Assembly (NCBI GenBank): GCA_000002445.1
Contig: CM000207.1
Span: 128,001 to 192,000, forward strand
Length of the DNA stretch: 64,000 nucleotides
From: Trypanosoma brucei
Lineage: Eukaryota
Reading direction: 5' to 3'
The position numbers and the translations under genes are program-made. This document shows, in pieces, positions 11,041-58,002 of this stretch; the first letter of the stretch is position 1; every line of letters begins with the position of its first letter. The notes under the pieces were generated by a model. It made no database searches, was not told the DNA's origin, and saw nothing but the letters and a program-made list of their open reading frames with translations.

Positions 11041-11051
11041 AAGCGGTGTTT

Positions 11052-11086: not shown

Positions 11087-11101
11087 AATTTCTCTTTTTA
11101 A

Positions 11102-23346: not shown

Positions 23347-23524
23347 TTTTGTCAAATATGTGAAAATTTTAAGAATTTGAAAATGCCAAAAATATGAAAT
23401 ATTGGTATTACATGTACGATAGTGACCTACAGGCAAAAACATTCTTTTAAGAAGATATTAAAAGTGATTACTATTTTCATTTTGTTCAAATTTTTAATTT
23501 TATGAATATTAGTTGTGGTTATAA

Positions 23525-23600
23525 TAGTAGTGAAAATAATAATGATAATAGTGATATGAGTGTGTTATGAGAGTGCACATACTAATATTATAATAGGAAT
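23525..23600. repeat. 70-bp repeat (degenerate single unit)
   Basis: 'agtagtgaaaataataatgataatagtgatatgagtgtgttatgagagtgcacatactaatattataatagg'. Confidence 0.7.
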
Positions 23601-25849
23601 GTTTCAATAGACTAAATTTGCAAGATAGAATAAAAGACATTAAAACAATGGAAAGGATGAAATAAGAGTGATTAAGAGAGTAGGATATTGAAAGTGGGAG
23701 AGCATGAGAAATATTATTAATAGTAACACAGAAAGACATAAAGAGGAAGAAAGAGGGGGACGGAATATGCGCAGTCTCAAACAAAAAAGATGATAATGGT
23801 CGTCACTACACACAATGAAATGAGAGAGGAACAGATTATAGAATGATGGCAAATTGGTGGCACTACATCATCAGAAGAAGAAGCGATAATAGGTCAACAA
23901 TAAGAAGAAAAATATGTAAAAAAATGACTGAATAGGCGACAGTGCAGAGCATATGTAAATAGAGCATCAGGAGAAGATTGTGCTCCACATTTCAATCAAA
24001 AATAGATAGATGCGACTGTGAAGATGAAAGTGACTGTGATTTTAAATCTGATGGCGGATCCTGATGCGTCGCTGTGAAGTGGAAGAGAAAGCGGGAAGGA
24101 ATTGGTAAGTGTGAAGTATTTTCAAAGTCTTCTCATCAGATAGAGAAACAATAGCTGACATTTGTGAGCTACAATAAAATATAATTAGACGAAGTATTTT
24201 TAAAAAGTCATTGCCAATGGATCACTATGAACAAAAAATAAAAGTAATAACGCTGAAACTACTTGAAATAGCGCATATTTGGACCGTTAGGGGAACTTTA
24301 TATGATATGGAAGATTTTGTAATGATACGCTAGCGATTCCATATCGGCATATAGATAAGCCGACGCGATTCGAGGACATAATGATCCACATAAGGGTGAA
24401 GGCTGATGAAGCTTAACTGGGGCACATGAAGCATGGAGAAAAGAAATTCAGCATGCAGCTCAAAAAAAAAAATTAAATTCATGAGCGCAAGGGGAGCACC
24501 CACGCACATGATTTGAAACCCAAGAAGAAGGCGAATAGTTATTTCCAAAAGCAGCTCCTTTACTTTGCTATTTCAAAGACGGATACTAGAGATGAGACTG
24601 TGGAAAATAGAACAGATTAAAAACAAGAAAAATTAAATGTTTTATTTATATAGAGAAAGGTTTTCAATGTATCATAGAAATATGGGAATAACCCGATGTG
24701 GGGATATATAAAAGATTTTATAGTTGACCGACCGGATCCGTCAGGATGTCTTAGACGGATATGACTTACAAGGCAGAAGCGAAGAAAGAACAACAGCGAC
24801 GCCAGTTACCGCCTGATCGCAGCAATCTAATACGCTGGACGGTGGAACCATATCTCAAGAAAAAGTGGCCGATAACACCTGACTTCCGGCAGAAAGTCGC
24901 AACAGAAGCTACTCCAGTCTGTTGGTGAGGCAGCAACTAAAACACTGACGCGATCCATGCAAAGAACTTTTTTAAAGAACCGGTTTTACTGCAAGGAAGA
25001 AAGTAGCTTCGAAGTACCTCACCACAGTAGAAAATAACTAACCTCATCACTTCACGACCGTCTCTGGCGTTATGCAAATAATAATAGGAAATTCGCTGCG
25101 ATATGTGGCAGTGACAATAATTGCATCATTAGCTGTCGAGAGAAGTGCCTTAACAGCAAAGATCTTTCAAACGCAGGGCCTTCTAACAAACATTAAAGAC
25201 GCCGTCCGTACTGGAATATCACCAGGCATACGATGCTCGCCTTCAAGCCAACTTTTTCTCTCTTCGTGAGGAATTACTGATCCGCGGCTTACGATACCTG
25301 CTTACTTGCGAAACGTTGGGTGAGGAGTGCAAGGGATGTGCAAACATTGTATGTCACCCACCGCATTCCCCCCGTCAAATATATCGCACAATCATGCAGA
25401 AGCTCTTCGCTGTCGAAGTAGAAAGACAAAGAGAACCGCTACCACCAGTCACCCTAACTTTCTCCCCCAGTTTTTTGTTCCATACAACACTATCATCGGA
25501 CGTGCATGCCGATTCCTAGGACAGTGTTCAGCTTGAATTATGTAAGAAATTGATTGTAAGGCACTACCGTGCAAAGGGAGCCCAACTAAATTCCATGCCG
25601 CATTTTGAAGTATGAGCAGACGGATCTGTTTCCTTAGGAATAAAATCAGGGGCTGCCTCAACGACATATGGCAATGACAATCCCATCTCGACGGTTCACT
25701 GTGGAGCCGGAACAATAGCGTGTAGCTACCGACCTGAGTGCATAGTAATGTTCGAGGTTTTGCATAAAATGATAAGCATATTACAACCGAAGGGAGCTCA
25801 CCCGTGTAAAATGTCTCTTTCTACTGACCGGCGGTCGCTGTTCAAGGCA

Positions 25850-27890
25850 CTACGAATGTGAGAAACAGCGGTAAAGGTAGGAATTTTGCGGGAGACTTGG
25901 ATAGTACTCTTGAGTATCGGATATCATAGCACCAGCATCTGCCTTCAGCTTATTTTTGGACATTGTGGTGTAGAAAAGAATGAATTGACGGACACAAAAG
26001 CGAGGGCACATGCAAACGTTCCTCAACAAGACGTCGGGTGGATACCCGACATCACTGCCTTGGAAAAGTGACACCTCAGGGTGAGCAGAGAGAAACTGAA
26101 GACACACAGGTTGGAAATGACCGGTGAATGGCAACCAACTAAAGAAGATTTGCCACTAAACCGATAGAGCAGGTGAAGTCACCAATTCCGCATTGGGACA
26201 TCGAACACATATGGATGGTTGCTGCAGGGGATAGACAAAACAGTTCCTAACAAGTGCAGATGGTGTGAAACCCATCCCTGCGGACAATACGGGAAAATGA
26301 ATTACGATAGAGCTCACATAGTGTTTCATACGAACCGAATGCACGGTGTACCCTACCATGAGGCATTGCGCCGGTTAAAACATGCTGCAGAACTTGGGGT
26401 GTTGCCTGAAATTTCACCCTATAACCCCTGCCCCCTCCACCGAAGTCGTATGCGCTCATTGTAACAAATCCTATGGAAACAAAGGAGGGCTCACATGGCA
26501 CAAAACTCGATGCCTTCACGGCAAAACGAGAAAGTTAGACGATGAAATGTCGGAGAAGCGGAAAGAAGATGAAAATATCAAACAGCACAAATGGGTTTGC
26601 GCAGAACGTGGCTTTTTCAATCCAAGAGTGCAGGTGTACTAACATTGCGCAGGCCACAGAAACACTACATGACCAACGACAGTCCCTTTCCACCCCACAC
26701 TGGCGGAACCATAATCCACACTGAATATGATAAAAAAACACACTCCAGTGAGGAATCTGTGGGTTCAAATTGATTTAGCAGAGAGGCCCGACAATACGTC
26801 ATGGAATAAAGAGCAGAGGTCAGCTTTAGCACATCATTCCAGTGGTGGAGAAACGGATAGGCAACCAAAGTGAAAACCGACCGCATCAACCCAACACCAA
26901 TGAACAAAGTGATAACACCACTAGTTCAGCCTCTGGAGAAAATGAAGCGATATATGGACCTCGCAGCTATATATTTCACACGTAAAATGGACTAGTGATA
27001 AGTCACGGGATGAAATACTGCGAAGTACAACCGCAAACGGGGTCGCGAGGAATAAAGAGGCAACGGGAACTCGAAGAGAATGCAAGTATTCCAACGAAGG
27101 GCTCCCGAGCGACGGAAACGAGAGGGCATCCAGTGAACGACCCAGTAGGCACATCTGAGCCGCTACAATGCACGCAATGTGGCTTTGTATCACAATCAAA
27201 AGGGGGAACAACACCAAGCACCAAGATTCAGCACCGCAGAGGCCATCCCCTGGATAGTAACACTGGTACAAAACGGAGCCGTTCCATCACAGAACAAGAG
27301 GTATCCCTCATTTGGAAAACGGTAACTATAGGTGTAAATGACACCTGTTGCACGCAATGCCGTCATACGCATGTATCAAAAGACAACCTGATGGAGCACT
27401 TCGGTGGAATGCATAGACAGCATCCCTTCTCCGTAGCAAAAGAATCTCCACCACCGCTCCGGAGCTTCAACGTCAGAGGGTTTCATCTACACTTCACGTT
27501 CGTAAACCGAAATCAGACGTCCCACTCAACATCAAGTTCATCTATACATCGCCATCAAAAACATGAAATCTGCGTTGAAAGGAAACATACACACTTCAAC
27601 TAATGCGAAGGGAATCCCACCCACATACTCGTGCGCTCAAGCCTAAAGTGCTCCGCAGTTACTTCGGGCTTGAGGGCGAAATATGCAGAAGATAGTGTTC
27701 ACCAAGGACCTTGCACAATTCCTCCTAGAAATTGAGAAACCCCTCATTCTCTTCCAGCCTGTACTTTCTTCATTCGAGAGGAACACCCCTATAAAGGAGA
27801 ATAGACTACACAAAAAGCTGCCCACTCCTCTGAATGAAAATTGTAAACTCCACTATGCTCTTCTACGTTTGGCTCAAAAAAAAAAAAAGA
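25850..27890 (+). mobile_element. 3' portion of a degenerate non-LTR retrotransposon (ingi/L1Tc clade; possibly DIRE): RNase H motif, three C2H2/C2HC-like zinc fingers, terminal poly(A)
   Basis: ORF 25886-26071 contains 'GHCGVEKNELTDTKARAHA', matching the LINE RNase H 'GHxGxxGNExADxLAK' motif. Zinc-finger motifs: 'CAHCNKSYGNKGGLTWHKTRC' (~26430-26500), 'CTQCGFVSQSKGGTTPSTKIQHRRGH' (~27170-27250), 'CTQCRHTHVSKDNLMEHFGGMH' (~27340-27420). Tract 'aaaaaaaaaaaaag' at 27876-27889. No recognisable RT motif upstream, so the copy is truncated and degenerate; it may extend back to ~24700. Confidence 0.6.
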
Positions 27891-29847: not shown

Positions 29848-30930
29848 TCAGATGGAAGAATTAGCGGTGGTAACATTACCAGCAACATCAATGTCGAACA
29901 GCAGCGACGTGAAGTTGTTATGCACCTTGTTAAATTGGGAGTGAAGAGAGGTGATATTTGACACCATTCCAAGAAGCATGGAAGGTGGCTGTCCGGCAGC
30001 AAAAGGTGTGATGAGGGGGCCAAATATTTCTTGCACCTTGACTTTAAGTTGAAAAGAAGCTCCACGATCTCGAACTTCTTTCCATTCCAATGCATCATTT
30101 GAGTTCTTAACTGCACCACTCCTATACAAATTATCCCTTGGAAGGTTGAAGCACTCCCTTACAGAACCATTCTGTACTGTTACTGCAAGACAACCGTCCT
30201 TATACGTTTTGAGAGTGCTCTCGTTTACAGTTTTTGCCAGAGGGCATGTTTGGTCAGCACACGGTGTTAACAACCCCTTAACCCTTTGAAAGGTTCGTTC
30301 TTCACATTTAGCAGTGCCTCCTGCTTCTACAGCCTTAACATCATCCCAAGCTGTCCGTGTTATCTCAGCAATAGATGCATAGTATTTATTTGCTGTTGTG
30401 AGAGCATCAGGTAAATATTTCCTCACTGCCCTCACACTCTCATTAACTTCAGAAAATAATCCACCTACTTTCGCTACAAGGTCTCCCATTTCATTTCCAT
30501 AAGATATAAGCTTTTCCATTTTCTTACGTTGGTCTCCCATTGCACTACTTACAACACTCAAATATTTTGTGCTTTCACCTGTTTTACCTTCCATGTCATC
30601 CAGTATACGAGATGCATTTGCGTATACTTCCTCATTCACAAGCATTTTCCTCTCGCCATCAGTGTATAATTTATTCAACGCATTCGAGAGACAACGAAGA
30701 TAACATAAAGTCTCTTTCAAATTCTTTTTGTAATAATCGTCGACCAGCGTGCATGGACCCTCTTCCTCTGCACCACCAATGCAAATTACAAAAAGTGAGA
30801 AAGCTAGGCATCGCTCAACAATAACCTTCATTTCCTTTAAAGCTGTACACAAAAAAATGTGGCACAGACATTTCATCGAACCGAATAAACTGCAGGCATG
30901 TAGTGGTAACGGATAAGTGATTTTACACAA
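29848..30930 (-). CDS. Secreted helical surface-protein-like ORF (360 aa); possibly transferrin-receptor/ESAG6-7/PAG-like or another a-type VSG-fold family member (unassigned)
   Basis: Long uninterrupted minus-strand ORF. N-terminal hydrophobic signal ('...CLAFSLFVICIGGA'). Long predicted helical stretches, then a Cys-containing region ('CADQTCPLAKTV...DGCLAVTVQNGSVREC'). N-glycosylation sequons. No C-terminal GPI hydrophobic tail (ends 'NVTTANSSI'). Confidence 0.5.
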   Translation of the reverse strand: MCKITYPLPLHACSLFGSMKCLCHIFLCTALKEMKVIVERCLAFSLFVICIGGAEEEGPCTLVDDYYKKNLKETLCYLRCLSNALNKLYTDGERKMLVNEEVYANASRILDDMEGKTGESTKYLSVVSSAMGDQRKKMEKLISYGNEMGDLVAKVGGLFSEVNESVRAVRKYLPDALTTANKYYASIAEITRTAWDDVKAVEAGGTAKCEERTFQRVKGLLTPCADQTCPLAKTVNESTLKTYKDGCLAVTVQNGSVRECFNLPRDNLYRSGAVKNSNDALEWKEVRDRGASFQLKVKVQEIFGPLITPFAAGQPPSMLLGMVSNITSLHSQFNKVHNNFTSLLFDIDVAGNVTTANSSI

Positions 30931-33900: not shown

Positions 33901-36900
33901 GTCCACCTTCACTTTGCTGGGGGTTTTTGCATTTGTATCGTGTCCATGTCGATCTCAGGAATTGTTTCTGTTCCCTCTCAGCCCAGTGTTGGAAATAGTG
34001 ATGTTTGTGCTCAGGGGTTGTTGACAGCATCCCTTGAAAAAACTACCTGCCCATACTTGATATAAATTGTGTCTCTTCTCCACCTTTCTCGTTCCTTCCT
34101 CCACTTCCTGCGCTGCGCAGGAACAGAAAAATTTCCCGATGATCCCTCCTTTCCTGTTACTACACACTTCAATCGCCTCAATTAAAAATATCATGCCTTC
34201 TGTAGCTACAGCACTCCCTAAGGTCATACAGCCGATTCCAGTCCCCTTTACCAGGCTCGTTGTTGGACTCTCCTGCCTTGGCGCGGCACACCACATGAAA
34301 CTTTACGACGCACACCTCACCTTCACTATCCGTCTAGGTTGCTTATATTAAGAATTTGATTGAAGCAAAACACTTCATATTTATCTTCCTAACACAGTTA
34401 CGTGACACCACAACAACACACCAGAAAATCAATATGTGAAAGAAATCAAAGCTCAATTGCGGGATGTAGAATGAGATGAAAGGATAGAACATCCGCTTTC
34501 AGCTCCGCAACACCGACGCATACTATAATTTTATGGCAAAATAAACTTCACAAATAAAAAAGCGCTCGCAATGCATCTACCAGCCTCTCCCAGTTACGAT
34601 TCACCATTATTGCGTTTTGTGGCTAGGATTAGGGCTAGCACTGTTAACAGCAATTATGCATTCGCGGTTTAATCAAATGTGTTAAGGCAATCAAAGAGAA
34701 AAATAAAAAATAAGGTAATGCGCAATAGAGGCGCCATTTCCAACAAGTTACTTCCCCTAATTAATCATTAATTTCTCAAGCGTTGCGTATCAATCATTCA
34801 TTGCCTTCTGCACATTCGTCCACTTCCCCCACTCTTGATTAATTTAATTTTTTCGCATACCTGTACCTTGTGCAAGTCATTGATTCATTGATTACTCACC
34901 ATCCAAATCATTTCATGTTTTCGTCCACCACCCGTATCACTTAAAGAATATCTTATGATCATAAGTGCAATCCCGTATTTAGTCGCTGAATTTCTCGGTT
35001 ATTTCCCTGCAATTTAAATTTATGATTTTACTAAGACCCTCCTCCTTAACCCATTTTCATCTTCCCCCAACGTTTTTCGATCTAGAACAGAAGTAGAGCT
35101 TATTTTTTCTTTGAACACTTCACGTGATACGATTTTCTCAGTACAACTGAGGTTAAGTTCCTTTTGATTAATAAAAGGATTCGCAAAGCCATTGATTTTT
35201 CTTCTTTTTTCTTTGCGCTCGTTCTTTTTACAACGCTATTTTAGGCCCCTTTATACACTTGAAAACATTGACTTATATTTCCTGTTTTGAAATTATTCGC
35301 ATTAACACTGTTTGTTAATTATTTCTGTATTGGAGCTATTCATCCATCGCATTGGATGCCGCTATGGAACTTAACAAACAAGTCCTTTGGTAATAACTGC
35401 TGGAAGGTAGCTACGTATTTTTCACCAGTCTTTGTACTTGACGCTTGTTGCTCAGTTGAACGATTTTAAGTGCATATATTGGTTTCGTAGTAATTTGTGG
35501 TAGAAACATATGAAACGAAGCGCCGCAGAGAATCATCATACGTCCGCCACGCCACGGACCGTTACAGCCTCCTGTGGTGCTTTCTGCGGACTCTCACACA
35601 TCTACAAAGTCTGTTTCCATCCCCACTGCATCGCTTTGACCTGTTCCCGAACTCACTCCCTGTGGCGACGGCCGCGCCACGCGCCCACTGTTGTGACCTG
35701 CTACTTTCACTCCCGAAACCGCATTTCCTCTTTTTCCACCTTCTCAGCGGACGTTTTTCACGCTTTCTTGCTTTGCAACTCCCAATTCTTGCCCTTCTTG
35801 ACTCACTTTATGTTCTCTGTAGTCAGCTTCTGAGGGTGCCGACTCCAAGACTGGGGAGCCTTCAGATACCCGGTCGATCGGATCTTCGCTCCAGCTTCCG
35901 CCCGCAGCATCACTTGATTGTGCGCTCACTGTAGGAACGGTTTCATCAGAGTCGGGTACCAACCGGCAAATTCTCTCTGAGGTTGAACTCGATTCAACAC
36001 TCAGCCGTTTTTGTTGCGTTGGAGTGCTAACCGTGGCTGCACCTGGTGTGAGGCCGTTACGAGCTGAGGTAGCTACAGGGGACCGCTGGTTCACACCGTT
36101 CTGGCGGGTTGCGCCAGTGCCCTAAGGCCAGCAGTGGTGCTTATTGAAAGATTCCAAGTACCCCTCGCATTTCTAGCTTTTGCTTGTTGCTTGCATTGAA
36201 GCTTCCGACTCGCCGCGTGGCACAAGCAATCTTAGCGTCAAAAATGAGATTGTTGTATGTGTGAACATTATTCTCCCTCGAGGTTTCTGACGAACAAATT
36301 ATACAAAACACTACCAGGAATAAGGAGACCAATACATGTAAGAATGCCACGTGGTAAACAACTATAATTAGATTTAGAATTAGAGTATATACGAATAAAT
36401 ACACGATACTCCATCCGATTACTTCCTGTGGAAAAAAAAAGCGTCTGAAACGCCACGATGGTCCCTTCCATCGACTTCAGCGCCTTTTAACTTAATTTTT
36501 GATGTATCACTCCAGCGCCTCCCTCACCTACAGTCCTTTTGATCGCCCCTCAGCTTCCTTGCACACGATTCCCTATTTTCCATATTCTCAAGAACTCAGG
36601 GCAACAAAAAAAATCAGACAATATGTCTTTTAATGGCTTCACTTTCCTACCAATTTAAATGAAAAAACATACACCTAGTTCTTTCAATATTTTTTTAAAT
36701 AAAGAATTTATCGGAGTTCACTAGTCTTTTTGTTACCACTTCCTTCATCACCTGTAGGTGACTTTGTCGCCAAACCAACACATTTGAACTTGACCGTAGC
36801 TTCAATGCTTTCCTGTATACATAACTATATTTTTGCTCTCCATTCTTAAATGCTGCAACCAAGCTTCCAAAGAAAGGTCACGCTGTTTCTGCTTCTTATG

Positions 36901-37310: not shown

Positions 37311-38327
37311 TTATGCAAACAGCCAAAATAAAAATATCCGTAGAAACTGTAAAATAATTTTGGCGGAACTCTTTTGTTCTTCTGGTGGTCTTGCCGTAGT
37401 GGCACCTGTTTCAGTGCTGGTAGTTGTTTGCGCATTTGGGTTTCCATCTTTTTGTGGTCCTTCTGTCCCCTTAGCTGGTGAGTTATCCCCTGTGCTTGGA
37501 ACTGTGTTTGGCTTTGGATATTTTTCCATGCTTGGCTTCCCGTCCGCACGTGGTTTTGTGCTTCCACTTGTACTTTCATCCTTGCTCATTTCTTCAACTT
37601 CTCTCACCAGATCTTCGAGCTTACTAAGCCATTCAATACCACTTGCGTTGTCCTCGTTAGATCCCCTTGGGTACAGCACACAAATGCCGTCGTTCTCTGA
37701 TTCCGCTCCATTGCAAGTATGCAGTCCGTACTCTTTACCTCCCCCGTAGGTATAGAGGTGTTCGCGTCCATCTGAGTTCTTACGTTTCTTTATGCGCATC
37801 CTGAATTGAACCTTATTCTCGTGAAATTCAGTTTCTGATGGCACACCTTTTCCACTTCCAGTTATGCATCTACTCCTCAAGTCGTCCCATGTGCTTCGGT
37901 GCTTTTGGATGGTTGGCCATTCCTGGGAGTTAACTTTTCTTACATTTCCCGTGTAACAAAGGTCCCTAAGATTTGGTTGCTGACCTGTTCCTTCGCACAA
38001 ACAAATAATATCTTTTACAAGAGACCTTCCTGCCGACGCAGGGATACCCCCACTGTCTTGTCCGTAATCCTGTTCTCTGTACCATTTCCATTTCATTCTA
38101 TTCAGATCATCAACTCCTGATTCAAACAATATATCTTTAACCCTTTTTTGCACAGAGGCCACGTCTGCTTTTGATTTTCCCTTCATTGTTTCAAGTGAAT
38201 CGCTTATTCGTCCAACGAAACTAACAAATTCACATAATATTTTAAATTCATCCTCATTAAGTATACCTTGCTCCGCGCCGGACACATAGGTCAATATTAA
38301 AGTCACACCAAGAACTAATCCCAGCAA
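37311..38327 (-). CDS. Small b-type-VSG-like GPI-anchored protein (338 aa); VSG-related/ESAG2-like candidate
   Basis: Intact minus-strand ORF. Signal peptide 'MLGLVLGVTLILTYVSGA'. 'IICLCEGTG' (the CxC of b-type VSGs) and 'HTCNGAESENDGICVLYP' (compare 'GCNGSKGHGICVKF' in the VSG at 60040 and 'GCTGADNAGMCVKIP' in the VSG at 8315). Ser/Thr/Pro-rich linker. C-terminal hydrophobic tail 'AKIILQFLRIFLFWLFA'. A polypyrimidine tract lies upstream on the coding strand (38370-38400). Confidence 0.55.
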   Translation of the reverse strand: MLGLVLGVTLILTYVSGAEQGILNEDEFKILCEFVSFVGRISDSLETMKGKSKADVASVQKRVKDILFESGVDDLNRMKWKWYREQDYGQDSGGIPASAGRSLVKDIICLCEGTGQQPNLRDLCYTGNVRKVNSQEWPTIQKHRSTWDDLRSRCITGSGKGVPSETEFHENKVQFRMRIKKRKNSDGREHLYTYGGGKEYGLHTCNGAESENDGICVLYPRGSNEDNASGIEWLSKLEDLVREVEEMSKDESTSGSTKPRADGKPSMEKYPKPNTVPSTGDNSPAKGTEGPQKDGNPNAQTTTSTETGATTARPPEEQKSSAKIILQFLRIFLFWLFA

Positions 38328-39296
38328 CTTCTTTCACATCTTCACCACGCCACCTTCAACTACCTTCCTGAAGGGAAAAGACAAACAATAGAAAGAAAAA
38401 GCCATATATCTACAACTTCACTTCCAAATAAACCGTATGCGCAGCCAACTGAGAAGCACTTCTAGTTTGTAAATCCCTTTTACTTTCGGTGCGTCAAATT
38501 AAAAGGAACTGTAGCTCATGCCAAATACATTTCTCTTTTCCTTTTTTAACGTCATAAACAGTGGGAGATAAGCCATTAACAAGTTGATGCGCATACACCA
38601 AACAAAATCCTTGACAACAAGCGTGCAAAAGCTGCTCCCTGACCCATTCGTACGACTTTGGTAACCACTCTGCTGGGTTTTCTGAGAACTCCCAGGCCTC
38701 AGGGCGATCGTAGTTCCAACTGAACTTTAAACAAGCGAGTTCCTACGTTTCTTCCTCAGAAACGAACTCAGAAATTCGACAGTACGTGATTTACTTTCAT
38801 CTGTAGAGGTTTTAAATTACTCCCACGGAAAGGAAGCACCTGCATAGATGAGTGTATTCTCGACTGCAAGAGGTAAAGAATTTATCCTCTTACGTAAACA
38901 AAATCTTTTAACCGCCACTCGCTCCTCAAAGAAGTACCAGCGGAAGCTCCTCGAACGCTGTCGCACATTTGCATCAGGTGTATTTTCACCGTATTTGTTG
39001 GCACAGGCATGCCCCTTTGATAGATGAGTTTCTTGCCTGATGCTTTCACACAGAGAAATACCTGGTATCAAACAGAATCACCAATCATATCCTTGGTACA
39101 CAAAACGCCGGCTCAACACATAAGTGTGAACCTCCAGAACGATAATGTCGAGTTCTGGCACTTGAGGAAAAGGCCCGCAATGCTTGTTTTCTTGAATTGG
39201 GCTGACTTTCAGCTTTCCGATGCATATTTGTAGCGACACGAAGAGCACCGTATGCTCCGCTCATCAACGATAACTGGAGTCACAATCGATATTCCT

Positions 39297-39857
39297 TTAT
39301 CCCTGTGTGACTAACCGAAAGTGCTTGTCGTCGCCACCAGTGCTACACTTGGTAGTTTTTTTTCCGTAACATCGGGCCCCTGCGCATGAAGTTAACTCTC
39401 CCAACAATTCTGTTAAGAAGCTACAGCGTATGCGTTGTAGTGAACATGCCATTGTATTCCTCTCATTTCCTGGGAGAGTTGAACATGTCGTTGTTCCGCA
39501 GCTTCGTATTCCATTGCCTGTCTTTTCACCGGTATCACACATTCCTTTAACGTTGTTGACGTATCTTGGGGGCACCGTACTGCCGTGTATCAGCTCCTGC
39601 TGTATCGCTAGGAATTCTTCTGACCTCGATGTGAAACCACCGCCCCTGTATTTCACTGCGCAACTGCGTGTAGTTGTGCCGGCATCTGCACCTATTTTTC
39701 CGTTAGTGCCGCATTGTTGTGCTTCGCATTGAACCAACATACCCATTTGACTTTGTTGCGCTGTGAGCACAAGCAACGATTCAGAGCAGTGTTTTGGTCC
39801 ACTATGTATTACGGGGCCTACCCTTTTTCGCACAAAGTAAATGTACAAATTATACAT
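39297..39857 (-). CDS. Cys-rich ORF (186 aa) of unknown identity; possible degenerate surface-protein fragment
   Basis: ORF with multiple Cys and Gly/Thr-rich stretches ('QQCGTNGKIGADAGTTTRSCAVKY', 'CGTTTCSTLPG', 'CYGKKTTKCSTGG'). No flanking support; it could be a chance ORF. Confidence 0.2.
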   Translation of the reverse strand: MYNLYIYFVRKRVGPVIHSGPKHCSESLLVLTAQQSQMGMLVQCEAQQCGTNGKIGADAGTTTRSCAVKYRGGGFTSRSEEFLAIQQELIHGSTVPPRYVNNVKGMCDTGEKTGNGIRSCGTTTCSTLPGNERNTMACSLQRIRCSFLTELLGELTSCAGARCYGKKTTKCSTGGDDKHFRLVTQG

Positions 39858-42800
39858 TTATTTGAGTCTTCTGCATGATTATCAGTAGCATCAATTTCAT
39901 AAGAAAGATTCACAGATTTGACTAGCGTGTGCCACCAGTATAATCTGAAGTAATTCCACAAGCAATTTTAGGCGCAATGCCGCACATCGTACAAATTGAT
40001 GATTCTGCAAAGATATCACTGATTTCTCTTCTTCTCCGTCTCTCTGTGTTCACCTCCTCGTGTGGTCCATAGTGGCATTTAGCAGTATCATATGTATCTC
40101 TCTTCTAATTTGTGCACGGTCAACTGATATTATTATATGTATAGCATTTTGGAGAGTCGCTCAGGCAGTAGTTTAGGTGCCACCACCAGTTGTGTTCCGG
40201 ATTTCATATTACTAGGTGATTTGTTACTGTAAATACCATGAATCAGCTGAGAGTTCCAGACACAATACGACACGCTCTACCTTGCATCCTTGCTGTGACT
40301 CTTGCTCTTTTCTTTTCGCCTCATAGAACCACATCTCAATTTTGCATATGACAGTGTGAGGTACAAGCACAAAGTGGTATGCTTGAAGTGGATTTTTGCT
40401 TGTCGCCCACTAATGTTGGTAGCTCACTGAGGGATGTGGTAGTCATGCGCTTGCAACATTTCCCACGTCCATTATGTGTCGTCGGAATCCCTTCCACAGT
40501 AACACGATAACAGGGAATACCTCAAGGTTCCTATCCTCTCCTCCATTCGGTTGCCACCAAACCCTAAAATCAGGAATATCCTTGAGGAAGTATCCCATTC
40601 AGAATGCGTCCTTTATTATCTCCATAATAAGTTGTATTCGCTTTTGTAGTGAGACCTGTTTATGGATAAAATTTCCAGAAGCGCCTAGTTGTTGTTGTTG
40701 TTTTCGCTCCGTCGTGGAACAGTGCGAAGTTGTACGGTGGCACCTGCGAAAGCGATCAGTTATTCGTGTCCGCTGGTTCGTTGATGATTGTGTCGCCACA
40801 GAAACCTTACAATTTCATACTATCTCTCTTTATCCCGATTGCTACAAACCACTCTCTTCTGACTGTCATTCAGATAAACTCGGCGCAACACATCACTTTT
40901 TTTTGTGTACAAAATCGCGCTTCGACAACATTTTTGTCCACCATATGTGTTACGGGATCATCGCGTATTTGATACCCAGCATTATTCCCACTTGCAAAGT
41001 CGCGAATGGTCTTCTGGTATTAGCTCAACTGGCCCTTACAACTTTCCCTTTCATACTGTTTCACGTTGTCAATGGCTTTCCGTTCCATCCACATAACTGT
41101 CATCACAGCTGCTAATGAGCAACGTGCAAAGAAACCTATGTACCTTTGATGTTAGGCTGCACAAAATCAATTCTATGTTGTCTGTGGCAAAAGATATTAA
41201 TGCATCGCAGTATATTTCCTCAATCGAGCTTGATGTTTCCCCTACGTTCCTCTGGGATTAGCCACGCACGGTTTTTCACCCTTTATATCTTTTGGAAAGA
41301 TGTGGATTGGGAAAATAATTCGCAAGCTTATGCATCACCACCCCTCCCTGGATTTCCTCCATATGCCTAGGATACTATCCAGAATTCCGTGGTGGATTTT
41401 GCTGTTGCTATTCTGTATGGAATGTGTTCTTCCTTAGGAGATAATCCGCACCTGATATTTTTGACCTCAAAACATCGACAACTGTCATAAACCTTCACGC
41501 TACGCTCTGTTTGTACCTTTCTCTGGTCGCACAATCACCAAGCCTGATAACATCAGTTTCATCCGTTGCGGGATGCTTTAGTCATTTCAGCCTCAGCATC
41601 CTTCAAGAGACGCTTCACTTCCACACATAGCAACTTGTATCTCAGAAGTTTCTGTAATGCTACCAACTTCGCCGTGGCTGAATTATCCTCAGTAAAAGCT
41701 AACATCCTTAAGTATTCACCAACTAGGTCATCAGGGTACAGAATCACATTTCGCATTACACTACGCCAATATGGCCCCCTTTCAGGGAATATATATACAG
41801 GGCAGCACTGTATAAAATGCAGGTGAGAGTCGAGAGCCCGTACACAAATGTCCCACAAAATGTATTCACCACACTCCTTCTACTCCCTTAATATTTAGAA
41901 GTCCCAAATGTTCATATTTTTCTGCAGCTGCTGAGGTCATGCCGTACATCCTACCACACAGATATTTCACACCTCTGTGCACAGAATGAAGTTTTCTAGG
42001 AATTTCCAACCACCGTTATTAACTTACTTCATGTGTAAAATAATAATAATAATAGAAACCAGACAGAACAAAAAGTAAGATCCTATTTGTCAACGGTAAC
42101 TTCATTGACAAACCCAACTCCTCAACGGGAAACCGAGAACAGGAAGCCACAAAGCATATGGCGCATATGATTTTCACCTCTCAGTTAAAATGAGGTGGAT
42201 TGCATGACTTACACACCTTCTAAGAGCACACCCTCCGAGTGACCCGATTATAAGAAAAGAGACACTATGACGGTTGAAAACAGTTTTTCATAAACCTTCA
42301 CTCCATCCGTGAGGATAAATGCGCAAACAATGATAACGATGGCAATACTAGTGAAAACAATGATGGAGCATTAGGATCATGGGGAAAAACATGTACTTTT
42401 ACATTAAGGAACCTTAATAAATAAAAAAAAAATACAAATGTTCCCTACACAGAGGTATAGGGGGTGTTCGCCAACTTCGCAACACTGGTCAAAAAGTATT
42501 TAAATGTATCGACCATTAGTGCAGTCAGTTGAATAAGAAGTAACATGTAATATATAAAAATATATACAAAACCTACAGACTCGAATGTCTCATCGTTATT
42601 CGCCCACTGAAAGTGATGTTAATTTCATGTTGAACAAAATGATGGAGACCGATACCGCAAATGCACCTCGTCCAAAACATATAACGCATACCAGTTGAAT
42701 GGAAGATACAATTTGTGTGCCCACATAATCTGCTTCATGCCATCACGTCAACACAACCAGGTGTCCGAATACTCCACAAATGTCTTCACCATTTGCAAAA

Positions 42801-45800: not shown

Positions 45801-46019
45801 TCTCCCACGCCACTACCGGCTTAAAAGGACGCGACGCTACCAACTCGAGAGCAGCGAAGACCTCCAACAGCATTCAAAAGACGGACAGCCTTCGGTGCGG
45901 CAGTACGAAGCAACATGGAAGGCTCCGCGCACTGTGAGTTCCGTGTTGCACGATCTTTCGGGGGAAAGGGAGTGGAACGGCTAAGTTTTCGGAAGCAGTG
46001 TGCTACGAAGCCTCGTCAG

Positions 46020-47068
46020 CATTTTTTTTTTTTTTGAAGAAGGAATCGATAAAGGAAGCGGACGAACCCAAGGGTGCCACTACACTTGCCGTTCGTGACG
46101 AGGATGTCCAAAAGGCTGCTGAAAACAAAGGCATCGCACTGCCTGCAAAAACAGAGGGCTGATCGCGACTGAAAATAGACACCGATGAAAACTTTGTAAA
46201 AAGGACGAGCGGTAGGGATTTCTTGAGATAGTTCGGCGAATGTAAACAGAGAAACCTAGGGTGCCGCTTGCTTTCTCTAGAGAAAAAAAAAAAACTTCCC
46301 TTCGAAGTTAGTTGCCGCACCGCGTCTATCGCCACCCTCGACTCGGGCTGCGCATGGGCGGACTCATGTCGAAGCACCTGCGGATTCGACACTTAAGGGA
46401 TATGTAGAGAAAGGGATCCAAAACACACGGACGGGCCAGGCAGTGAACATTCCAGGAGCCGACGGCTGACCATTTTAACCGTTTGCACACCCTGAGTTAG
46501 CAGAAGTGGTTTGGGGAGCTTCCCGCCAACTGATGGGGGTGAGGCTTGGTTGTGAAAGCGGAAGGAGCTAAGCAAGATTGCTATGCGAAAGCTGACTTAT
46601 CTTCGTAATCGATGAACTTCGTCTAGAGAAGACTGCTGAAAAATGCTTTCACTGAAGGAAAACTGCTTTTTCATTCCCTAGAGAAATCGACTAATAATGT
46701 CGAGTTGTATTAACTTGTCGCTGTGTCCGTTGGAACGTAGGAGCTCATGGCAAGAGATGTTGCCAGAAGGAAAGAACGCGGGCTGTGGCGACCCCGTGCG
46801 CAACAGTCATATTCCATCGCGTGGAAGTTTGCCGTTGGCTCTATTTTTGAGAAGGTGATACTGCTGATGGCACGCTGGCACGTGCCCAGGGACCGACAAA
46901 TGAAAAACGGTGTCCCAGCAAGACGCCGTTGATCCCTGTGCTGTATGATGCCGTGGCCGGAGCAAAGCAGTGTTCCCCATGAGAGGAACGCTGCTGGCTC
47001 TTGGCTTCTCCCGATGAGACGGGGTACTGGACCCTGGCACCACGTTGAGGTGGCCGGCGCAACCAGGG
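46020..47068 (-). mobile_element. Candidate RIME/ingi-type retroposon fragment (5' hallmark-like palindrome at 47033-47068; poly(A) as a T14 run at 46022-46037)
   Basis: 'ccctggcaccacgttgaggtggccggcgcaaccaggg' at 47033-47068 is a CCCTGG...CCAGGG palindrome resembling the conserved 5' 'CCCTGGC' signature of ingi/RIME/L1Tc/SIDER elements. On the minus strand the element would start 'CCCTGGTTGCGCCGGCCACC...' and run to a poly(A) about 1 kb away. This is recognition from memory and was not aligned. Confidence 0.3.
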
Positions 47069-48590: not shown

Positions 48591-49406
48591 ATGCTTAAAA
48601 TTGCAGCAGTCATTTTGTTGACGCTGAGGACGTGTACGCCCAGTGTCGTCTTCACACGACAACCAGACGTGCAGGTCACATATGGAGACGAAGGGCCGAG
48701 AGAGTACTTCGCTCCCACAGCAGAACAGTTGGCACGGGGAAAGATAACTCCAAAACACAAAACTCAGCCGATGGTGGGACCTTTGACCCATGGTAGTATA
48801 CCCGATGAAAGGAGCGAAGGAGGTGAAAGTGAGAAAAAAAGTAGTGAAAAAGTCAGCCCTAAGGCAAGCGATGTTGAGAACGAGGATGGTACAGTGGTTG
48901 AAGTATTACACCAACCAGAGGCGAGTGGGGCACCTGTTGTTGCAGGTGAGGAAAGCACATATATAGCAGCACAAAAGTCAAAAAGAACAAAAAAACAATA
49001 GGGCGAGGACGATGAGGGTAAAGGAGGGAAGAACAAAGAAGATATTTCAGGAATGCAAGCAAAAAATCGTAACTACAGCCATGATGCACATCCTGCACCA
49101 CGAGGTGCAGTCTCGGTGGTTGACCAAGGAAGCACACAAGGGGCGAAAACCGTGAGCAAACGATCAGTCGATGAGGGAGGAAAGGAGATTTCGCAGCAGC
49201 AAGTGTCGGGGCAGTATGAAAGCTACGTAGCGTTGCCACTGCGAAATGGAATGTCCGAACATGAAGTGAGTAGACCTTCAGAAGTGGCCTTGGACGATGT
49301 GGGTGAACCCTCGTCCTTAAGTGAAAGTGTACCGAGGAGAAACGGTGCGAGTCGCAAAAGGTGTGCGATATTACTCTCCACAGGATTAAGTGTGGTGTTC
49401 TCCTGA
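48591..49406 (+). pseudogene. Acidic secreted/GPI-type protein gene with a single in-frame stop (about 272 codons)
   Basis: ORFs 48591-49001 and 49053-49406 are in the same frame, separated by one TAG (48999-49001). Signal peptide 'MLKIAAVILLTLRTCTPSVVF'. Acidic, Ser/Glu/Lys-rich body. C-terminal hydrophobic 'CAILLSTGLSVVFS' (GPI-signal or TM-like). Family not recognised. Confidence 0.4.
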
Positions 49407-55900: not shown

Positions 55901-57998
55901 GGTGAAATGGTTAAATCATTGGGTCGCATCGGGACCATATTGCATCATGACAAATATCATGCTACCATTTAAAAAATAAGTAGCAGTAGTAGCAAGGAGA
56001 AAGCTATTGTTTTTTCTCACTCCTTCTGCCACGTACATCATGCATAATACAACAGTTTTCATTTATTCTATAGTAGATTTTTTCACATAGCAAGGGATAC
56101 TCGGAATTGTTGTGTCACTTTCGTTGTCCTAGCCATACTGTCTGCTTTTTATGGTTAAACTAAAACTCCAATGAAATCACATTGTTGTGTCATCTTTTGT
56201 GAGTCAACAATGATAGTATGCCCCACATTTCTTCATGTTCGTAAATATTTTGTTTCCACGACATTTAACCACGTCATGTGCCTCATACTGATACATATGT
56301 TGCATATCCATGTTTGAGTCCTCAATATTTCAGGGTTCGCCTGCTGCAGCCTCACGACATCGGCGTCTTCTGAAAAGACCCTTGTAATGGTGTGTAAAAT
56401 TCCAGGAGTCCATTTTATTAACTGATGGGGAGTCGATTAAATTCACTAATTCCTCATTTTAGTTAAGGTATCGGAACCCCACCCGAATATTCTCAGGTAA
56501 CTTCACTTGGGAGAGGAACGACTTTAGATCAAACATTGCTACAGACTGGTCATGGAGAGTATTTAAATACTGGGAAAAGTGACACAATGGGACATATGCC
56601 TCATAATCATCCCTGCTCTTTTTAGCCTTTGGTCATGCAATAAATCAACGCCTTCTTCCAATTCCGTGTTTCCTCCATCACAAATAATGGCACACAACCC
56701 ATCCTGTCGTATGTCTCTTTGAAACTGTGCTAATGATACGCGGCTGCTTCATTATTTGGGCATACTTTTCTGCAATGTGCAATTTCAGACTCCTTGTTTT
56801 ATACTCTCTCTTTCCACATCATCTGTGCTATTCTTAATGCTCCAAACCTCATCAAATCGCTTACTCCCTTCTTGCATCATCCTCTGTCAAATCCACTGAA
56901 GGGAAATCATTCCCACATTCATTTCCTATTGGAGAGGTGAAGTCTTTTTTTTTTCCTCATCCCGTGATGTCACCTTCATTTCCCCTTGTGAGTGTCAAGG
57001 AATGTTGTGCCCTTAATAATTTGGGAAAGTATTCCCTGTTATAAGTCCCGTCTTCCCTCACACTGAGGCTGCACATTCCTTCCAATTGTATCTTACATCA
57101 AAGACATTAAAAGAACCGACTTGCTGACGACAACTATCAATCATCTGAGATACCACACTGTGCTTTGTGGGAGTTCTGTTTTGTAGATGTGCTTTCCCAA
57201 TTGTATTAATAATATGTTGTCAATGTTGTGTTCCATTGCAACTACTGCCGCTGCGCGTGTCAGCAGTGCTCTTCTCTTTATGGGATGTTCTATCATTACG
57301 TATGGTCGTTTCAGTATGGTATCACTTTTCCCCTTTGTGGTAATCGTTATGAACTTCTTCCCCTTTCCTCCCGAGGTTCCTCCCTATGACTTTTCTCACA
57401 CTGGCAATATCCTTTTTCCAGTTGATAATTACGCATCGTGTGAGTCTGTCGGTATCGCTTTTGAATTTCTTTGGAAGGTTCCCTCCCAAAAAAATCCACT
57501 ATTGAGGCTTGCTTGCCATGTGAGTGTGGTATAACATTTTCCTTTTTTGGGAGTTGCGTAATTTCTTTTCCTCCAATGCTGGCTAATTCAGTCCATTGAT
57601 ATTGCAACTGGATACCACTCTGGACGGAACTTTCTGCAAGATATTATCGAATCCCCATTACAACATGTGTTGTGTTTGTTTGATGGGTTCACCTGTTACC
57701 GTATTGTAAAGACGGACCCCAAAAACAACATCCGCGTCGGTGTGTCCAATAGAAATGATGGAAGAGCTCTCCTGTACTGAAATGGCAATGCTCTTTGCGA
57801 GTCGTAAACTTACAACAACAAATAGAAGTGCAGTTGCATCCTATGCTGGCATGCGGTAATGATTTTCCGCCAATGCATAAAAACACCGCATGATGAATTC
57901 CTATTGCTCACATGTTTTAGTCCTCAGCCACATTCACTTTGCTATTCTGTTGGCTCCTGAAACCAATACCATGATGTACGGACAGCTTTTTGTGGGAA

Positions 57999-58002
57999 CT
58001 GC

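What the first reader, a model, noticed from the sequence alone, without database searches (positions are those of the whole stretch)
23600..58000. About 34 kb non-VSG island interrupting a co-directional VSG array, with opposite-strand surface-protein genes
VSG cassettes are strictly on the + strand on both sides. Between ~23.6 and 58 kb there are no 70-bp repeats, 16-mers or VSGs. The island carries a retroelement tail on +, two well-formed secreted-protein ORFs on the minus strand (29848-30930 and 37311-38327), a possible minus-strand retroposon 5' end, an acidic GPI-like pseudogene on +, and about 20 kb of ORF-poor degenerate sequence with many A or T homopolymer runs (27876, 29713, 43751, 46022, 46268, 50770, 50857). 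This looks like an inverted insertion or the remnant of an old strand-switch region colonised by retroposition. The retroelement at its left edge suggests retroposon-mediated rearrangement.
Basis: inference. Interest (0 to 1): 0.6.

Follow-up and report, generated by a model that had tools for sequence, protein, structure and literature searches.

The report
ESAG/retroposon patch inside VSG array
The 34-kb gap in this trypanosome surface-antigen gene array is real, but it is an already annotated and ordinary piece of Trypanosoma brucei chromosome 9: a patchwork of expression-site-associated genes, decayed pseudogenes and broken retroposons lying in mixed orientation.

Summary
The window is T. 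b. brucei TREU927 chromosome 9, contig Tb09.142; six ORFs match deposited proteins exactly. The interruption exists. Plus-strand VSG cassettes, 16-mers and 70-bp repeats stop at 23.6 kb and resume at 58.0 kb.

It is not one inverted insertion. Base composition shows four strand blocks: minus 29.5-41.9 kb, plus 42-54.2 kb, minus 54.2-57.97 kb, then plus again.

Contents:
- An ingi/L1Tc-type retroposon 3' fragment (about 24.7-27.9 kb, +).
- An intact ESAG1 (-).
- A VSG-related (VR) gene with TGA at codon 2 (-).
- A probable diverged ESAG9 relic (-).
- A 330-nt ingi/RIME 5'-only fragment with a perfect Pr77 hallmark (47068, -).
- An ESAG9-like gene with one in-frame TAG (+). Published work reports it as stumpy-induced (Tb09.142.0370/0380).
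- An RHS pseudogene fragment (+).

The closest VR and ESAG9 paralogues sit four accession numbers apart on chromosome 5, and the same pair occurs in expression site BES11.

The best reading is a recombination-built ESAG/VR/RHS/retroposon patch lying between two co-oriented 70-bp repeats. I found no target-site duplication and no long inverted repeats. VSGs resume on the right, so this is not an array/core boundary. Novelty is low.

The parts
23510..23595 (+). Single 70-bp repeat unit. It closes the left VSG cassette and opens the cassette that the island interrupts.
   Evidence: blastn match 7674-7746 against 23521-23595, plus/plus. Sequence read directly. Last 16-mer at 23331-23346.
23738..24342 (+). 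Ordinary purine-rich VSG-cassette upstream flank. It belongs to the array, not to the island.
   Evidence: 62% identity over 631 nt to 20291-20907, which follows the previous 70-bp repeat.
24700..27888 (+). Degenerate 3' fragment of an ingi/L1Tc-clade non-LTR retroposon: RNase H-like region, C2H2 zinc-finger region and an A13 tail. The 5' limit is approximate.
   Evidence: 26379-26462 is 93% identical to aa 77-104 of the RIME/ingi-type ORF P0047, E=1e-14. RNase H-like motifs ADGS...E...D at 25616-25858 and GHCGVEKNELTD at 25862-26068. Sub-threshold zf-C2H2 and zf-BED hits. A13 at 27876-27888. The domain order RH, then zinc fingers, then poly(A) matches L1Tc (PMC5814959). Frames are broken by many stops. 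No Pfam RVT or RNase H hit. No TSD.
29848..30831 (-). Intact ESAG1 gene, 327 aa. Exact match to EAN76230; probably Tb927.9.660.
   Evidence: Pfam ESAG1 PF03238, E=1.8e-115. Exact match to the TREU927 protein and 99% identity to T. b. rhodesiense 'ESAG Il' AAB04054.
34628..36268 (-). Probable second, highly diverged ESAG9-family relic: CDS about 36268 down to 35440, with its 3' flank from 35442 down to 34628.
   Evidence: 3' flank is 55.6% identical over 844 nt to the flank of the + strand ESAG9-like gene (49464-50281), inverted, E=5e-11. The start and signal-peptide region is similar (48580-48628 against 36279-36231). Weak collinear protein similarity, E=0.002-0.3. This is inference, not proof.
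37311..38339 (-). VSG-related (VR) pseudogene of 342 codons with TGA at codon 2. No 70-bp repeat lies upstream of it.
   Evidence: Pfam VSG_B, E=5.9e-28. 24 homologues of about 342 aa are named VSG-related or VSG. The best is TREU927 chr5 AAZ11138 at 78-79%. M*KKLLGL is read directly, and the paralogue has W at codon 2. Mosaic identity: aa 1-112 at 51%, aa 113-342 at 92%.
39297..41115 (.). Two annotated hypothetical ORFs: Tb09.142.0350 (39297-39857, -) and EAN76233 (40474-41115, +). No family was recognised for either.
   Evidence: Exact matches to EAN76232 and EAN76233. No Pfam family.
46734..47068 (-). 5'-only fragment of an ingi/RIME retroposon carrying the Pr77 hallmark. It marks a rearrangement breakpoint.
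   Evidence: CCCTGGTTGCGCCGGCCACCTCAACGTG at 47068 down to 47041, with 0 mismatches to the hallmark pattern and 0 matches in 100 shuffles. CCACC at nt 16-20 and CGTG at nt 25-28, as defined in PMC4748587. ORF 46713-47144(-) hits 18 representatives, the best at 88% identity. One of them, P0046, continues into a DVEENPGP 2A motif and the start of an endonuclease domain. Homology stops at 46.73-46.80 kb.
48591..49406 (+). ESAG9-like gene of 271 codons with one in-frame TAG at codon 137. Annotated as Tb09.142.0370 plus 0380; probably the Tb927.9.680 pseudogene. Its 3' flank is 49464-50281.
   Evidence: Both halves match EAN76234 and EAN76235 exactly and fall in the 90% cluster of the 271-aa ESAG9 AAZ11142 from chr5. 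One ungapped 271-aa tblastn HSP at 92%. TAG where the paralogues have H or Q. 'ESAG9-like', 7.5x and 2.6x up in stumpy forms (PMC2771046).
51543..53238 (+). RHS (retrotransposon hot spot) pseudogene fragment with its upstream ORF (EAN76236, 51543-51860).
   Evidence: Pfam RHSP P-loop, E=2.2e-10 in the concatenate and 8.6e-12 alone. RHS_N E=0.0015, below cutoff. The frame changes between 52576-52761, 52794-53048 and 53026-53238. ORF 51543-51860 has paralogues of 90% identity or more on chr1 and in T. b. equiperdum.
54170..57970 (-). Pyrimidine-rich block on the + strand (minus-type composition) with no recognised gene. It ends exactly at the right-hand 70-bp repeat.
   Evidence: Cumulative GC-skew maximum at 54165 and minimum at 57970. 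Purine fraction 0.41-0.45, against 0.56-0.62 in the array. No Pfam family. Annotated hypothetical ORFs EAN76240 and EAN76241 lie on +.
58003..58081 (+). 70-bp repeat, (AAT)17 followed by GGAGAGTGCTGCAAGTGTGTATATACG. The array resumes here.
   Evidence: TRF. blastn to 7652-7734, plus/plus. Sequence read directly.
58844..59881 (+). UDP-Gal/GlcNAc glycosyltransferase gene (EAN76242). It belongs to the resumed cassette, not to the island.
   Evidence: Exact match. Pfam Galactosyl_T. Pseudogene copy at 15959-16836, 77% nt identity.

Best explanation
The island is a composite patch of the non-VSG material that normally accompanies VSGs in T. brucei subtelomeres. It lies between two co-oriented 70-bp repeats, in the position where one cassette's VSG should be. 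It was built in several steps, by ectopic recombination or segmental duplication of an ESAG/VR module and by breaks in or near ingi-type retroposons. It was not built by a single inversion or a single retroposition.

Shown:
- The source of the window and the identities of the genes.
- The four strand blocks.
- The 3'-only and 5'-only retroposon fragments.
- The single-nonsense pseudogenes.
- The paralogy to a VR/ESAG9 neighbourhood on chromosome 5.

Inferred:
- The minus block (VR pseudogene, then ESAG9 relic, then ESAG1) descends from an ES-like or 'VSG/ESAG island' gene string.
- The plus block (ESAG9-like, then RHS pseudogene) is a second, oppositely oriented piece.
- The junction at about 42-47 kb behaves as a divergent strand switch. 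Published stumpy-form ESAG9-like and ESAG1 transcripts could start there.

The patch is not a functional unit. Most of it is decaying: VR has TGG changed to TGA, ESAG9-like has a CAG- or CAY-type codon changed to TAG, and RHS and the retroposons survive only as fragments. ESAG1 remains intact.
For: - Source: exact protein matches to TREU927 chr9 entries EAN76228-76242, locus tags Tb09.142.0320, 0350 and 0430.
- Gene content: Pfam ESAG1, VSG_B, RHSP and Galactosyl_T. The VR family. The ESAG9 cluster.
- Strand blocks: cumulative GC skew has a maximum at 26.4 kb, a minimum at 45.6 kb, a maximum at 54.17 kb and a minimum at 57.97 kb. Purine fraction is 0.39-0.48 over 30-42 kb and 0.55-0.61 over 46-54 kb.
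- Flanks: both flanking 70-bp repeats are in + orientation, and the left margin is normal cassette flank.
- Retroposons: a Pr77 5'-only fragment and a 3' fragment with a poly(A) tail.
- Paralogy: VR AAZ11138 and ESAG9 AAZ11142 are four accession numbers apart on the same 1,608,198-bp contig.
- VR identity is mosaic, 51% then 92%, which suggests partial gene conversion.
- An inverted, diverged pair of ESAG9-type 3' flanks lies inside the island.
- Literature: VR plus ESAG9 replace ESAG2-11-1 in BES11 (PMC2567434). [quoted passage not shown] The ESAG9-like ORFs are stumpy-induced (PMC2771046). Tb927.9.680 lies within 5 kb of a dynamic Bdf3 site (PMC9241505).
Against: - I could fetch no chr5, BES11 or other-strain DNA. 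The paralogy rests on protein identity and accession order, not on aligned flanks.
- The order and number of rearrangement events cannot be reconstructed.
- About 20 kb of the island has no recognised homology, so other origins for those parts remain open.
- The second ESAG9 relic rests on a 55.6% nucleotide match and weak protein similarity.
- The equation of Tb927.9.660 and Tb927.9.680 with the window genes is inferred from names, not from coordinates.
- Using composition skew as a proxy for transcription direction is an inference.
Confidence: 0.6

Rival explanations
1. A single inversion. A formerly + oriented segment was flipped. One breakpoint fell inside an ingi-type element, leaving its 3' part (+) at 24.7-27.9 kb and its 5' part (-) at 47.07 kb.
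For: - The geometry is right for inverting a segment that carried the 3' part of a minus-strand element. The 3' fragment lies on + to the left and the 5' fragment on - to the right, with ESAG1, VR and the ESAG9 relic all on - between them.
- A 5'-only fragment requires a break after insertion.
Against: - The fragments cover only about 0.33 kb and about 3.2 kb of a 5.2-kb element, and they share no sequence.
- The sequence upstream of the Pr77 end and the sequence downstream of the poly(A) tail do not form a TSD.
- The composition switch is at 41.9-45.6 kb, not at 46.7 kb.
- Two further strand switches, at 54.17 and 57.97 kb, are left unexplained.
Confidence: 0.12
2. A relic of a former telomeric expression site of the BES11 type (VR, ESAG9, then ESAG1), later buried inside the array by subtelomere growth or recombination.
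For: - Reading the minus strand gives VR pseudogene, then a probable ESAG9 relic, then ESAG1. This echoes ESAG2-11-1, or VR-ESAG9 in BES11 (PMC2567434).
- The ESAG1 is 99% identical to a T. b. rhodesiense ESAG1-like gene.
- RHS pseudogenes and ingi elements typically lie upstream of expression sites (my own knowledge).
Against: - No ESAG7, 6, 5, 4, 8 or 3 signal appeared in the Pfam screens of all ORFs of 48 aa or more.
- No 70-bp repeat or VSG lies downstream of ESAG1 on the minus strand. The adjacent 70-bp repeat is in the opposite orientation.
- VR and ESAG9 also occur together in a chromosome-5 core locus, so an expression-site origin is not needed.
Confidence: 0.15
3. The window spans an array/core boundary, and the island is conserved core sequence.
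For: VR and ESAG9 paralogues sit in a chr5 region near FLA3 (Tb927.5.4580) and a Rab-like gene (PMC3546053, PMC2443814). That region is core-like.
Against: - VSG cassettes with 70-bp repeats resume at 58.0-64 kb.
- No housekeeping gene lies in the island.
- Array VSGs continue in Tb09.244.xxxx (PMC1934917, PMC3553974).
Confidence: 0.03
4. An assembly artefact: a chimeric join of subtelomeric clones in the TREU927 v4 contig.
For: Subtelomeres are the hardest regions to assemble (PMC2854126). The compositional switches are abrupt, for example at 57.97 kb, right beside an (AAT)17 tract.
Against: - No N runs.
- The gene models are consecutive and the accessions run in order.
- Paralogous modules exist elsewhere.
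- Transcripts map to the ESAG1 and ESAG9 pseudogene models in independent studies (PMC2771046, PMC11095692).
Confidence: 0.05

Closest known systems
'VSG/ESAG islands' of T. brucei chromosomes (Jackson et al. 2010, PMC2854126)
   Same: Small clusters of VR, atypical VSG and ESAG genes, often on the strand opposite to their neighbours. They lack 70-bp repeats and are described as dynamic. The closest paralogues of the VR and ESAG9 genes here lie in such a chr5 locus.
   Different: The published islands sit in chromosome cores among housekeeping genes. This one is embedded in a subtelomeric VSG array, is bracketed by 70-bp repeats, and is mostly pseudogenised.
Bloodstream expression site BES11 (TAR122) of Lister 427 (PMC2567434)
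   Same: A VR gene and an ESAG9 gene occur together. The VR has no upstream 70-bp repeat.
   Different: There is no promoter, no ESAG7/6/5/4/8/3 and no telomeric VSG here. The intact-looking ESAG9-like copy is divergent to the VR and 10 kb away. Only the doubtful relic is co-oriented with the VR.
ingi / RIME / DIRE retroposons of the ingi/L1Tc clade
   Same: Pr77 hallmark at the 5' end, a 2A-type N-terminus in the homologues, the order RNase H, then C2H2, then poly(A) at the 3' end, and a subtelomeric location next to RHS.
   Different: Neither copy is complete. One is 3'-truncated, which retroposition cannot produce. The other is riddled with stops. No TSD is detectable.
Divergent strand-switch regions (pol II transcription start regions)
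   Same: A change of strand asymmetry and of gene orientation at about 42-47 kb. A Pr77-bearing element sits there. Published Bdf3 occupancy lies within 5 kb of Tb927.9.680 (PMC9241505).
   Different: No chromatin or transcription-start data were examined here. The 5' ends of T. brucei ingi/RIME gave no promoter activity in reporter assays (cited in PMC1874656).

Membership tests
ESAG1 | Match to the ESAG1 domain (PF03238) above the curated cutoff, in a protein of about 330 aa with an N-terminal signal sequence | tested here: met
   384.6 bits against a cutoff of 27. 327 aa, starting MKVIVERCLAFSLFVICIGGA. Exact match to the TREU927 protein annotated 'ESAG protein'.
VSG-related (VR) genes | Short protein of about 340 aa, related to b-type VSG and clustering with annotated VR proteins | tested here: met
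   VSG_B E=5.9e-28. The best hits are 340-345-aa 'VSG-related' proteins.
VSG-related (VR) genes | No 70-bp repeat upstream and no 16-mer downstream | tested here: met
   No 70-bp repeat or 16-mer between 23.6 and 58.0 kb. The criterion comes from PMC2567434.
VSG-related (VR) genes | Intact open reading frame (a functional member) | tested here: not met
   TGA at codon 2. It is a pseudogene unless this is a sequencing error or the stop is read through.
ESAG9 | Sequence membership of the ESAG9 family | tested here: met
   Falls in the 90% cluster with the 271-aa proteins that UniRef names ESAG9. 92% identity over all 271 residues. Called 'ESAG9-like' in PMC2771046.
ESAG9 | Stumpy-form-enriched mRNA | not testable with these tools
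   Literature only: 7.5x and 2.6x for Tb09.142.0370 and 0380 (PMC2771046).
ESAG9 | Uninterrupted ORF | tested here: not met
   In-frame TAG at codon 137.
ingi/L1Tc-clade retroposon, minus-strand copy at 47068 | Pr77 hallmark at the 5' end: CCCTGG start, CCACC at nt 16-20, CGTG at nt 25-28 | tested here: met
   Exact pattern match, 0 expected by chance. Positions as defined in PMC4748587.
ingi/L1Tc-clade retroposon, minus-strand copy at 47068 | Endonuclease, RT, RNase H and zinc-finger coding regions, a poly(A) tail and a TSD | tested here: not met
   Homology ends about 330 nt into the element. No Pfam domains. No TSD. It is a fragment, not an element.
ingi/L1Tc-clade retroposon, plus-strand copy at 24.7-27.9 kb | A 3' end with RNase H, then C2H2 zinc fingers, then poly(A) | tested here: inconclusive
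   The motifs are visible and in the right order. One 28-aa segment is 93% identical to a RIME/ingi-type ORF, and an A13 tail is present. However, there is no Pfam RNase H or RVT hit, the zinc-finger hits are below cutoff, and no homologue turned up.
ingi/L1Tc-clade retroposon, plus-strand copy at 24.7-27.9 kb | Target-site duplication | tested here: not met
   No shared k-mer of 8 nt or more other than poly(A) between the post-tail sequence and 23.6-26.0 kb.
RHS (retrotransposon hot spot) genes | RHS P-loop domain (PF07999) and RHS_N | tested here: met
   RHSP 45.5 bits against a cutoff of 25. RHS_N 18.9 bits, below the cutoff of 21. Only profile positions 5-46 of 312 match and the frames shift, so this is a pseudogene fragment.
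Divergent strand-switch / transcription start region | Divergent gene orientation together with a switch of strand composition | tested here: met
   Minus-strand genes up to 39.9 kb and plus-strand genes from 48.6 kb. Purine-skew minimum at about 41.9 kb and GC-skew minimum at 45.6 kb.
Divergent strand-switch / transcription start region | Histone-variant, H4K10ac or Bdf3 marks and mapped transcription starts | not testable with these tools
   Indirect only: Tb927.9.680 is listed within 5 kb of a Bdf3 site (PMC9241505).

The most novel reading that the evidence does not exclude
The junction at about 42-48 kb is a working divergent transcription start region buried inside an otherwise silent VSG array. 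It would drive the stumpy-enriched ESAG9-like transcript to the right and the VR/ESAG1 string to the left. On this reading the VR-ESAG9 pair is a portable module that has moved between a chromosome-5 core island, an expression site (BES11) and this subtelomeric array, carrying its own regulatory context.
Probability: 0.2. Interest if true: 0.4.

Novelty: already known. Interest (0 to 1): 0.15.

Why it matters
Mostly as a calibration case. The break, however, is part of the annotated TREU927 reference (Tb09.142.0310-0450, later Tb927.9.6xx) and is made of components long known to accompany VSGs.

It has modest value as a worked example of how silent VSG arrays are interrupted. ESAG/VR modules are shared with core islands and expression sites. 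Broken ingi-type elements mark recombination scars. Genes are silenced by single nonsense transitions.

If the internal strand switch really does initiate transcription, that would help explain why some 'subtelomeric' ESAG transcripts are detected and developmentally regulated.

Tried and rejected
1. Pfam screens of every stop-to-stop ORF of 48 aa or more on both strands of 23.4-58.9 kb, concatenated with X linkers. They found only RHS, beyond the ESAG1 and VR already known. No RT, endonuclease, adenylate cyclase, LRR or transferrin-receptor-type signal appeared.
2. A concatenated-ORF query of the 5.8-billion protein set returned nothing. Exact matches to several of those ORFs are in that collection, so this negative is unreliable; the candidate list hit 8000. 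I do not use it as evidence.
3. A concatenated query of the + strand retroposon frames gave no hit at E<=0.001.
4. The look-up of encoding contigs for the window's ESAG1, a window VSG, and the chr5 VR reported 'not on record' each time. No DNA-level synteny with chr5 or other strains was possible.
5. A TSD search around the + strand element and a visual check around the Pr77 fragment found none.
6. I tested whether the two retroposon fragments are halves of one element. They share no similarity, and together they are too short.
7. tRNA and Rfam scans, including a permissive scan for an HDV-like ribozyme at Pr77, found nothing.
8. An inverted-repeat search for breakpoint repeats found only short or low-complexity pairs.
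9. Pfam on the ingi-type N-terminal homologues found no domain. Their identification rests on Pr77 and the 2A motif.

Full report
WHERE THE WINDOW COMES FROM

Six ORFs in the window are letter-for-letter identical to deposited proteins of Trypanosoma brucei brucei TREU927, all on one 3,057,547-bp record, which is chromosome 9:
- VSG 5814-7334 is EAN76228.
- VSG 8315-9913 is EAN76229.
- The minus-strand ORF 29848-30831 is EAN76230, annotated 'ESAG protein'.
- 58844-59881 is EAN76242, a UDP-Gal/GlcNAc glycosyltransferase.
- Further exact matches carry the locus tags Tb09.142.0320, 0350 and 0430.

The region is already annotated.

CHECKING THE OBSERVATION

The interruption is real.
- Pfam finds VSG_B / Trypan_glycop_C only on + strand ORFs to the left (5.8-23.2 kb) and to the right (60.0-61.6 kb).
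- The conserved 3' 16-mer occurs seven times, always on +, the last at 23331-23346. Chance expectation is 0.12.
- 70-bp-repeat blocks occur at 3.3, 7.6, 12.0, 15.1, 20.1, 23.52-23.60, 58.00-58.08 and 61.9 kb, all in + orientation. None lies between.
- The listed homopolymer runs exist, with offsets of 10-16 nt for several.

Some points need correcting.
- The first 0.75 kb of the 'island' (23738-24342) is ordinary cassette flank, 62% identical to the flank after the previous 70-bp repeat. The break therefore starts at about 24.35-24.7 kb.
- The right edge is sharp. The cumulative GC skew has its minimum at 57970, 33 nt before the (AAT)17 that opens the next 70-bp repeat.

WHAT IS INSIDE

(a) 24.7-27.9 kb, + strand. 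This is a degenerate 3' fragment of an ingi/L1Tc-clade retroposon.
- RNase H-like motifs (ADGS...E...D and GHCGVEKNELTD) are followed by three C2H2-type motifs and an A13 tail at 27876-27888. That is the domain order described for this clade (PMC5814959).
- One 28-residue stretch (26379-26462) is 93% identical to a RIME/ingi-type ORF, E=1e-14.
- Pfam gives only sub-threshold zinc-finger hits, and no TSD is present.
- The identification is therefore good but not complete.

(b) 29848-30831, minus strand. This is an intact ESAG1: Pfam E=1.8e-115, and 99% identity to a T. b. rhodesiense ESAG1-like protein.

(c) 37311-38339, minus strand. This is a VSG-related (VR) gene.
- All 24 homologues are proteins of about 342 aa named VSG-related or VSG.
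- The ATG is followed directly by TGA where the closest paralogue has TGG. The 'well-formed' ORF is an artefact of starting at an internal TTG.
- Identity to the chr5 paralogue AAZ11138 is 51% over residues 1-112 and 92% over residues 113-342. That is a mosaic pattern.

(d) 48591-49406, + strand.
- Both annotated halves (EAN76234 and EAN76235) cluster at 90% or more with the 271-aa ESAG9 AAZ11142.
- They align to it in a single ungapped frame at 92%.
- The only defect is a TAG at codon 137, where the paralogues have H or Q.
- Jensen et al. list Tb09.142.0370 and 0380 as 'ESAG9-like', 7.5-fold and 2.6-fold up in stumpy forms (PMC2771046).
- A later study names Tb927.9.660 (ESAG1) and Tb927.9.680 (an ESAG9 pseudogenic transcript) as co-regulated (PMC11095692). 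I take these to be the same genes, but I could not verify the coordinates.

(e) 34.6-36.3 kb, minus strand. This is probably a second, much more diverged ESAG9-type unit.
- Its 3' flank is 55.6% identical over 844 nt to the flank of (d), in inverted orientation, E=5e-11.
- The regions around the start codons resemble each other.
- This is an inference.

(f) 47068 down to about 46.73 kb, minus strand.
- The sequence CCCTGGTTGCGCCGGCCACCTCAACGTG has CCACC at positions 16-20 and CGTG at positions 25-28. Those are the published Pr77 hallmarks (PMC4748587). A pattern search finds this one site and none in 100 shuffles.
- The overlapping ORF hits 18 representative proteins, up to 88% identical. One of them continues into a DVEENPGP 2A motif and the start of an endonuclease domain.
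- Homology stops after about 330 nt.
- Retroposition truncates copies at the 5' end. A 5'-only piece therefore marks a later break.

(g) 52.6-53.2 kb, + strand. This is an RHS pseudogene fragment: RHSP P-loop 45.5 bits, with the frames shifting.

(h) The remaining roughly 20 kb has no recognised homology and no tRNA or Rfam match.

ARCHITECTURE

Strand composition divides the region into blocks:

| Block | Coordinates | Purine fraction on + |
|---|---|---|
| Array, plus-type | up to about 29 kb | 0.56-0.62 |
| Minus-type | 29.5-41.9 kb | 0.39-0.48 |
| Plus-type | 42-54.17 kb | 0.50-0.54 over 42-46 kb, then up to 0.61 |
| Minus-type | 54.17-57.97 kb | 0.41-0.45 |
| Plus-type | after 57.97 kb | array values |

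Gene orientations agree with these blocks. ESAG1, VR and the ESAG9 relic lie on the minus strand in the first minus block. ESAG9-like and RHS lie on the plus strand in the plus block.

The island therefore has two convergent and two divergent switches, not one inverted block. No inverted repeats mark the block edges.

ORIGIN

The closest VR (AAZ11138) and ESAG9 (AAZ11142) paralogues lie four accession numbers apart on the same chromosome-5 record. The literature places ESAG3 (Tb927.5.4600) and ESAG9 (Tb927.5.4620) close together there (PMC9241505, PMC5380359).

The same VR plus ESAG9 pair replaces ESAG2-11-1 in expression site BES11 of Lister 427 (PMC2567434).

[quoted passage not shown] They also report subtelomeres as about 13% ESAG and about 8% transposon-related (PMC2854126).

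The most economical reading is that an ESAG/VR module of this kind, plus RHS and ingi material, was placed by ectopic recombination into one VSG cassette between two 70-bp repeats. It was then rearranged at least once more and is now decaying.

I give this reading 0.6. The rivals:
- A single inversion that split one ingi element fits the geometry of the two fragments. It fails on length, on the missing TSD and on the extra strand switches (0.12).
- A buried relic of an expression site is possible for the minus block, but the rest of an expression site is absent (0.15).
- An array/core boundary is contradicted by the window itself (0.03).
- Misassembly cannot be excluded without long reads (0.05).

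POSSIBLE FUNCTION

Nothing suggests that the island works as a unit.

The one reading with some interest is that the divergent switch at 42-48 kb initiates transcription.
- For it: the ESAG9-like ORFs give regulated mRNA (PMC2771046), and Tb927.9.680 is listed within 5 kb of a Bdf3 site (PMC9241505).
- Against it, as far as the Pr77 fragment is concerned: that fragment points left, away from ESAG9-like, and T. brucei ingi/RIME 5' ends showed no promoter activity in reporter assays (cited in PMC1874656).

VERDICT

The object is ordinary and already annotated, so interest is low.

Noticed in passing
window 15959-16836 and 58828-59701: A glycosyltransferase pseudogene in the left array is 77% identical at nucleotide level to the intact GT gene right of the island. 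Both sit between a 70-bp repeat and the next VSG. This suggests a recurrent cassette type: 70-bp repeat, then GT, then VSG.
   Followed up: partly
window 37311-38339 and 48591-49406: The VR and the ESAG9-like gene are each disabled by one nonsense change: TGG to TGA at codon 2, and a CAG- or CAY-type codon to TAG at codon 137. Both are otherwise open over their full length. This could be recent pseudogenisation, polymorphism or sequencing error.
   Followed up: partly
window 37311-38339: VR identity to its chr5 paralogue jumps from 51% over aa 1-112 to 92% over aa 113-342. A Lister 427 'VSG 1903' fragment matches the N-terminal part better, at 79%. This looks like segmental gene conversion within a family that is said not to undergo it often.
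   Followed up: partly
window 10100-11100: A T-rich, low-complexity stretch with short tandem repeats lies inside the + strand array. The + strand purine fraction is 0.39 there, the only pyrimidine-rich kilobase in the left array.
   Followed up: no
window 60064-64000: No 16-mer, even allowing two mismatches, follows the VSG pseudogene at 60.06-61.6 kb. Every cassette left of the island has one.
   Followed up: no
window 51255-51279: A short head-to-head microsatellite, (ATA)n immediately followed by (TTA)n. It is complementary to the (AAT)17 of the right-hand 70-bp repeat. It might be a scar of an inverted 70-bp-repeat remnant, or it might be chance.
   Followed up: no
window about 51.9-55.5 kb (exact ORF not located): Tb09.142.0410 must lie in this part of the island. 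It is reported as the only 'hypothetical' high-confidence GPI-anchored candidate without homologues, and it is expressed in tsetse salivary-gland and proventricular stages (PMC3378594).
   Followed up: no
window 4370-4978 and 17243-17862: A 77%-identical direct repeat of about 620 nt lies upstream of two different VSGs. This is shared cassette upstream flank.
   Followed up: no
method: A 2.1-kaa query made of concatenated ORFs returned no hit from the search for homologous proteins. Negatives from concatenated queries should not be trusted.
   Followed up: yes
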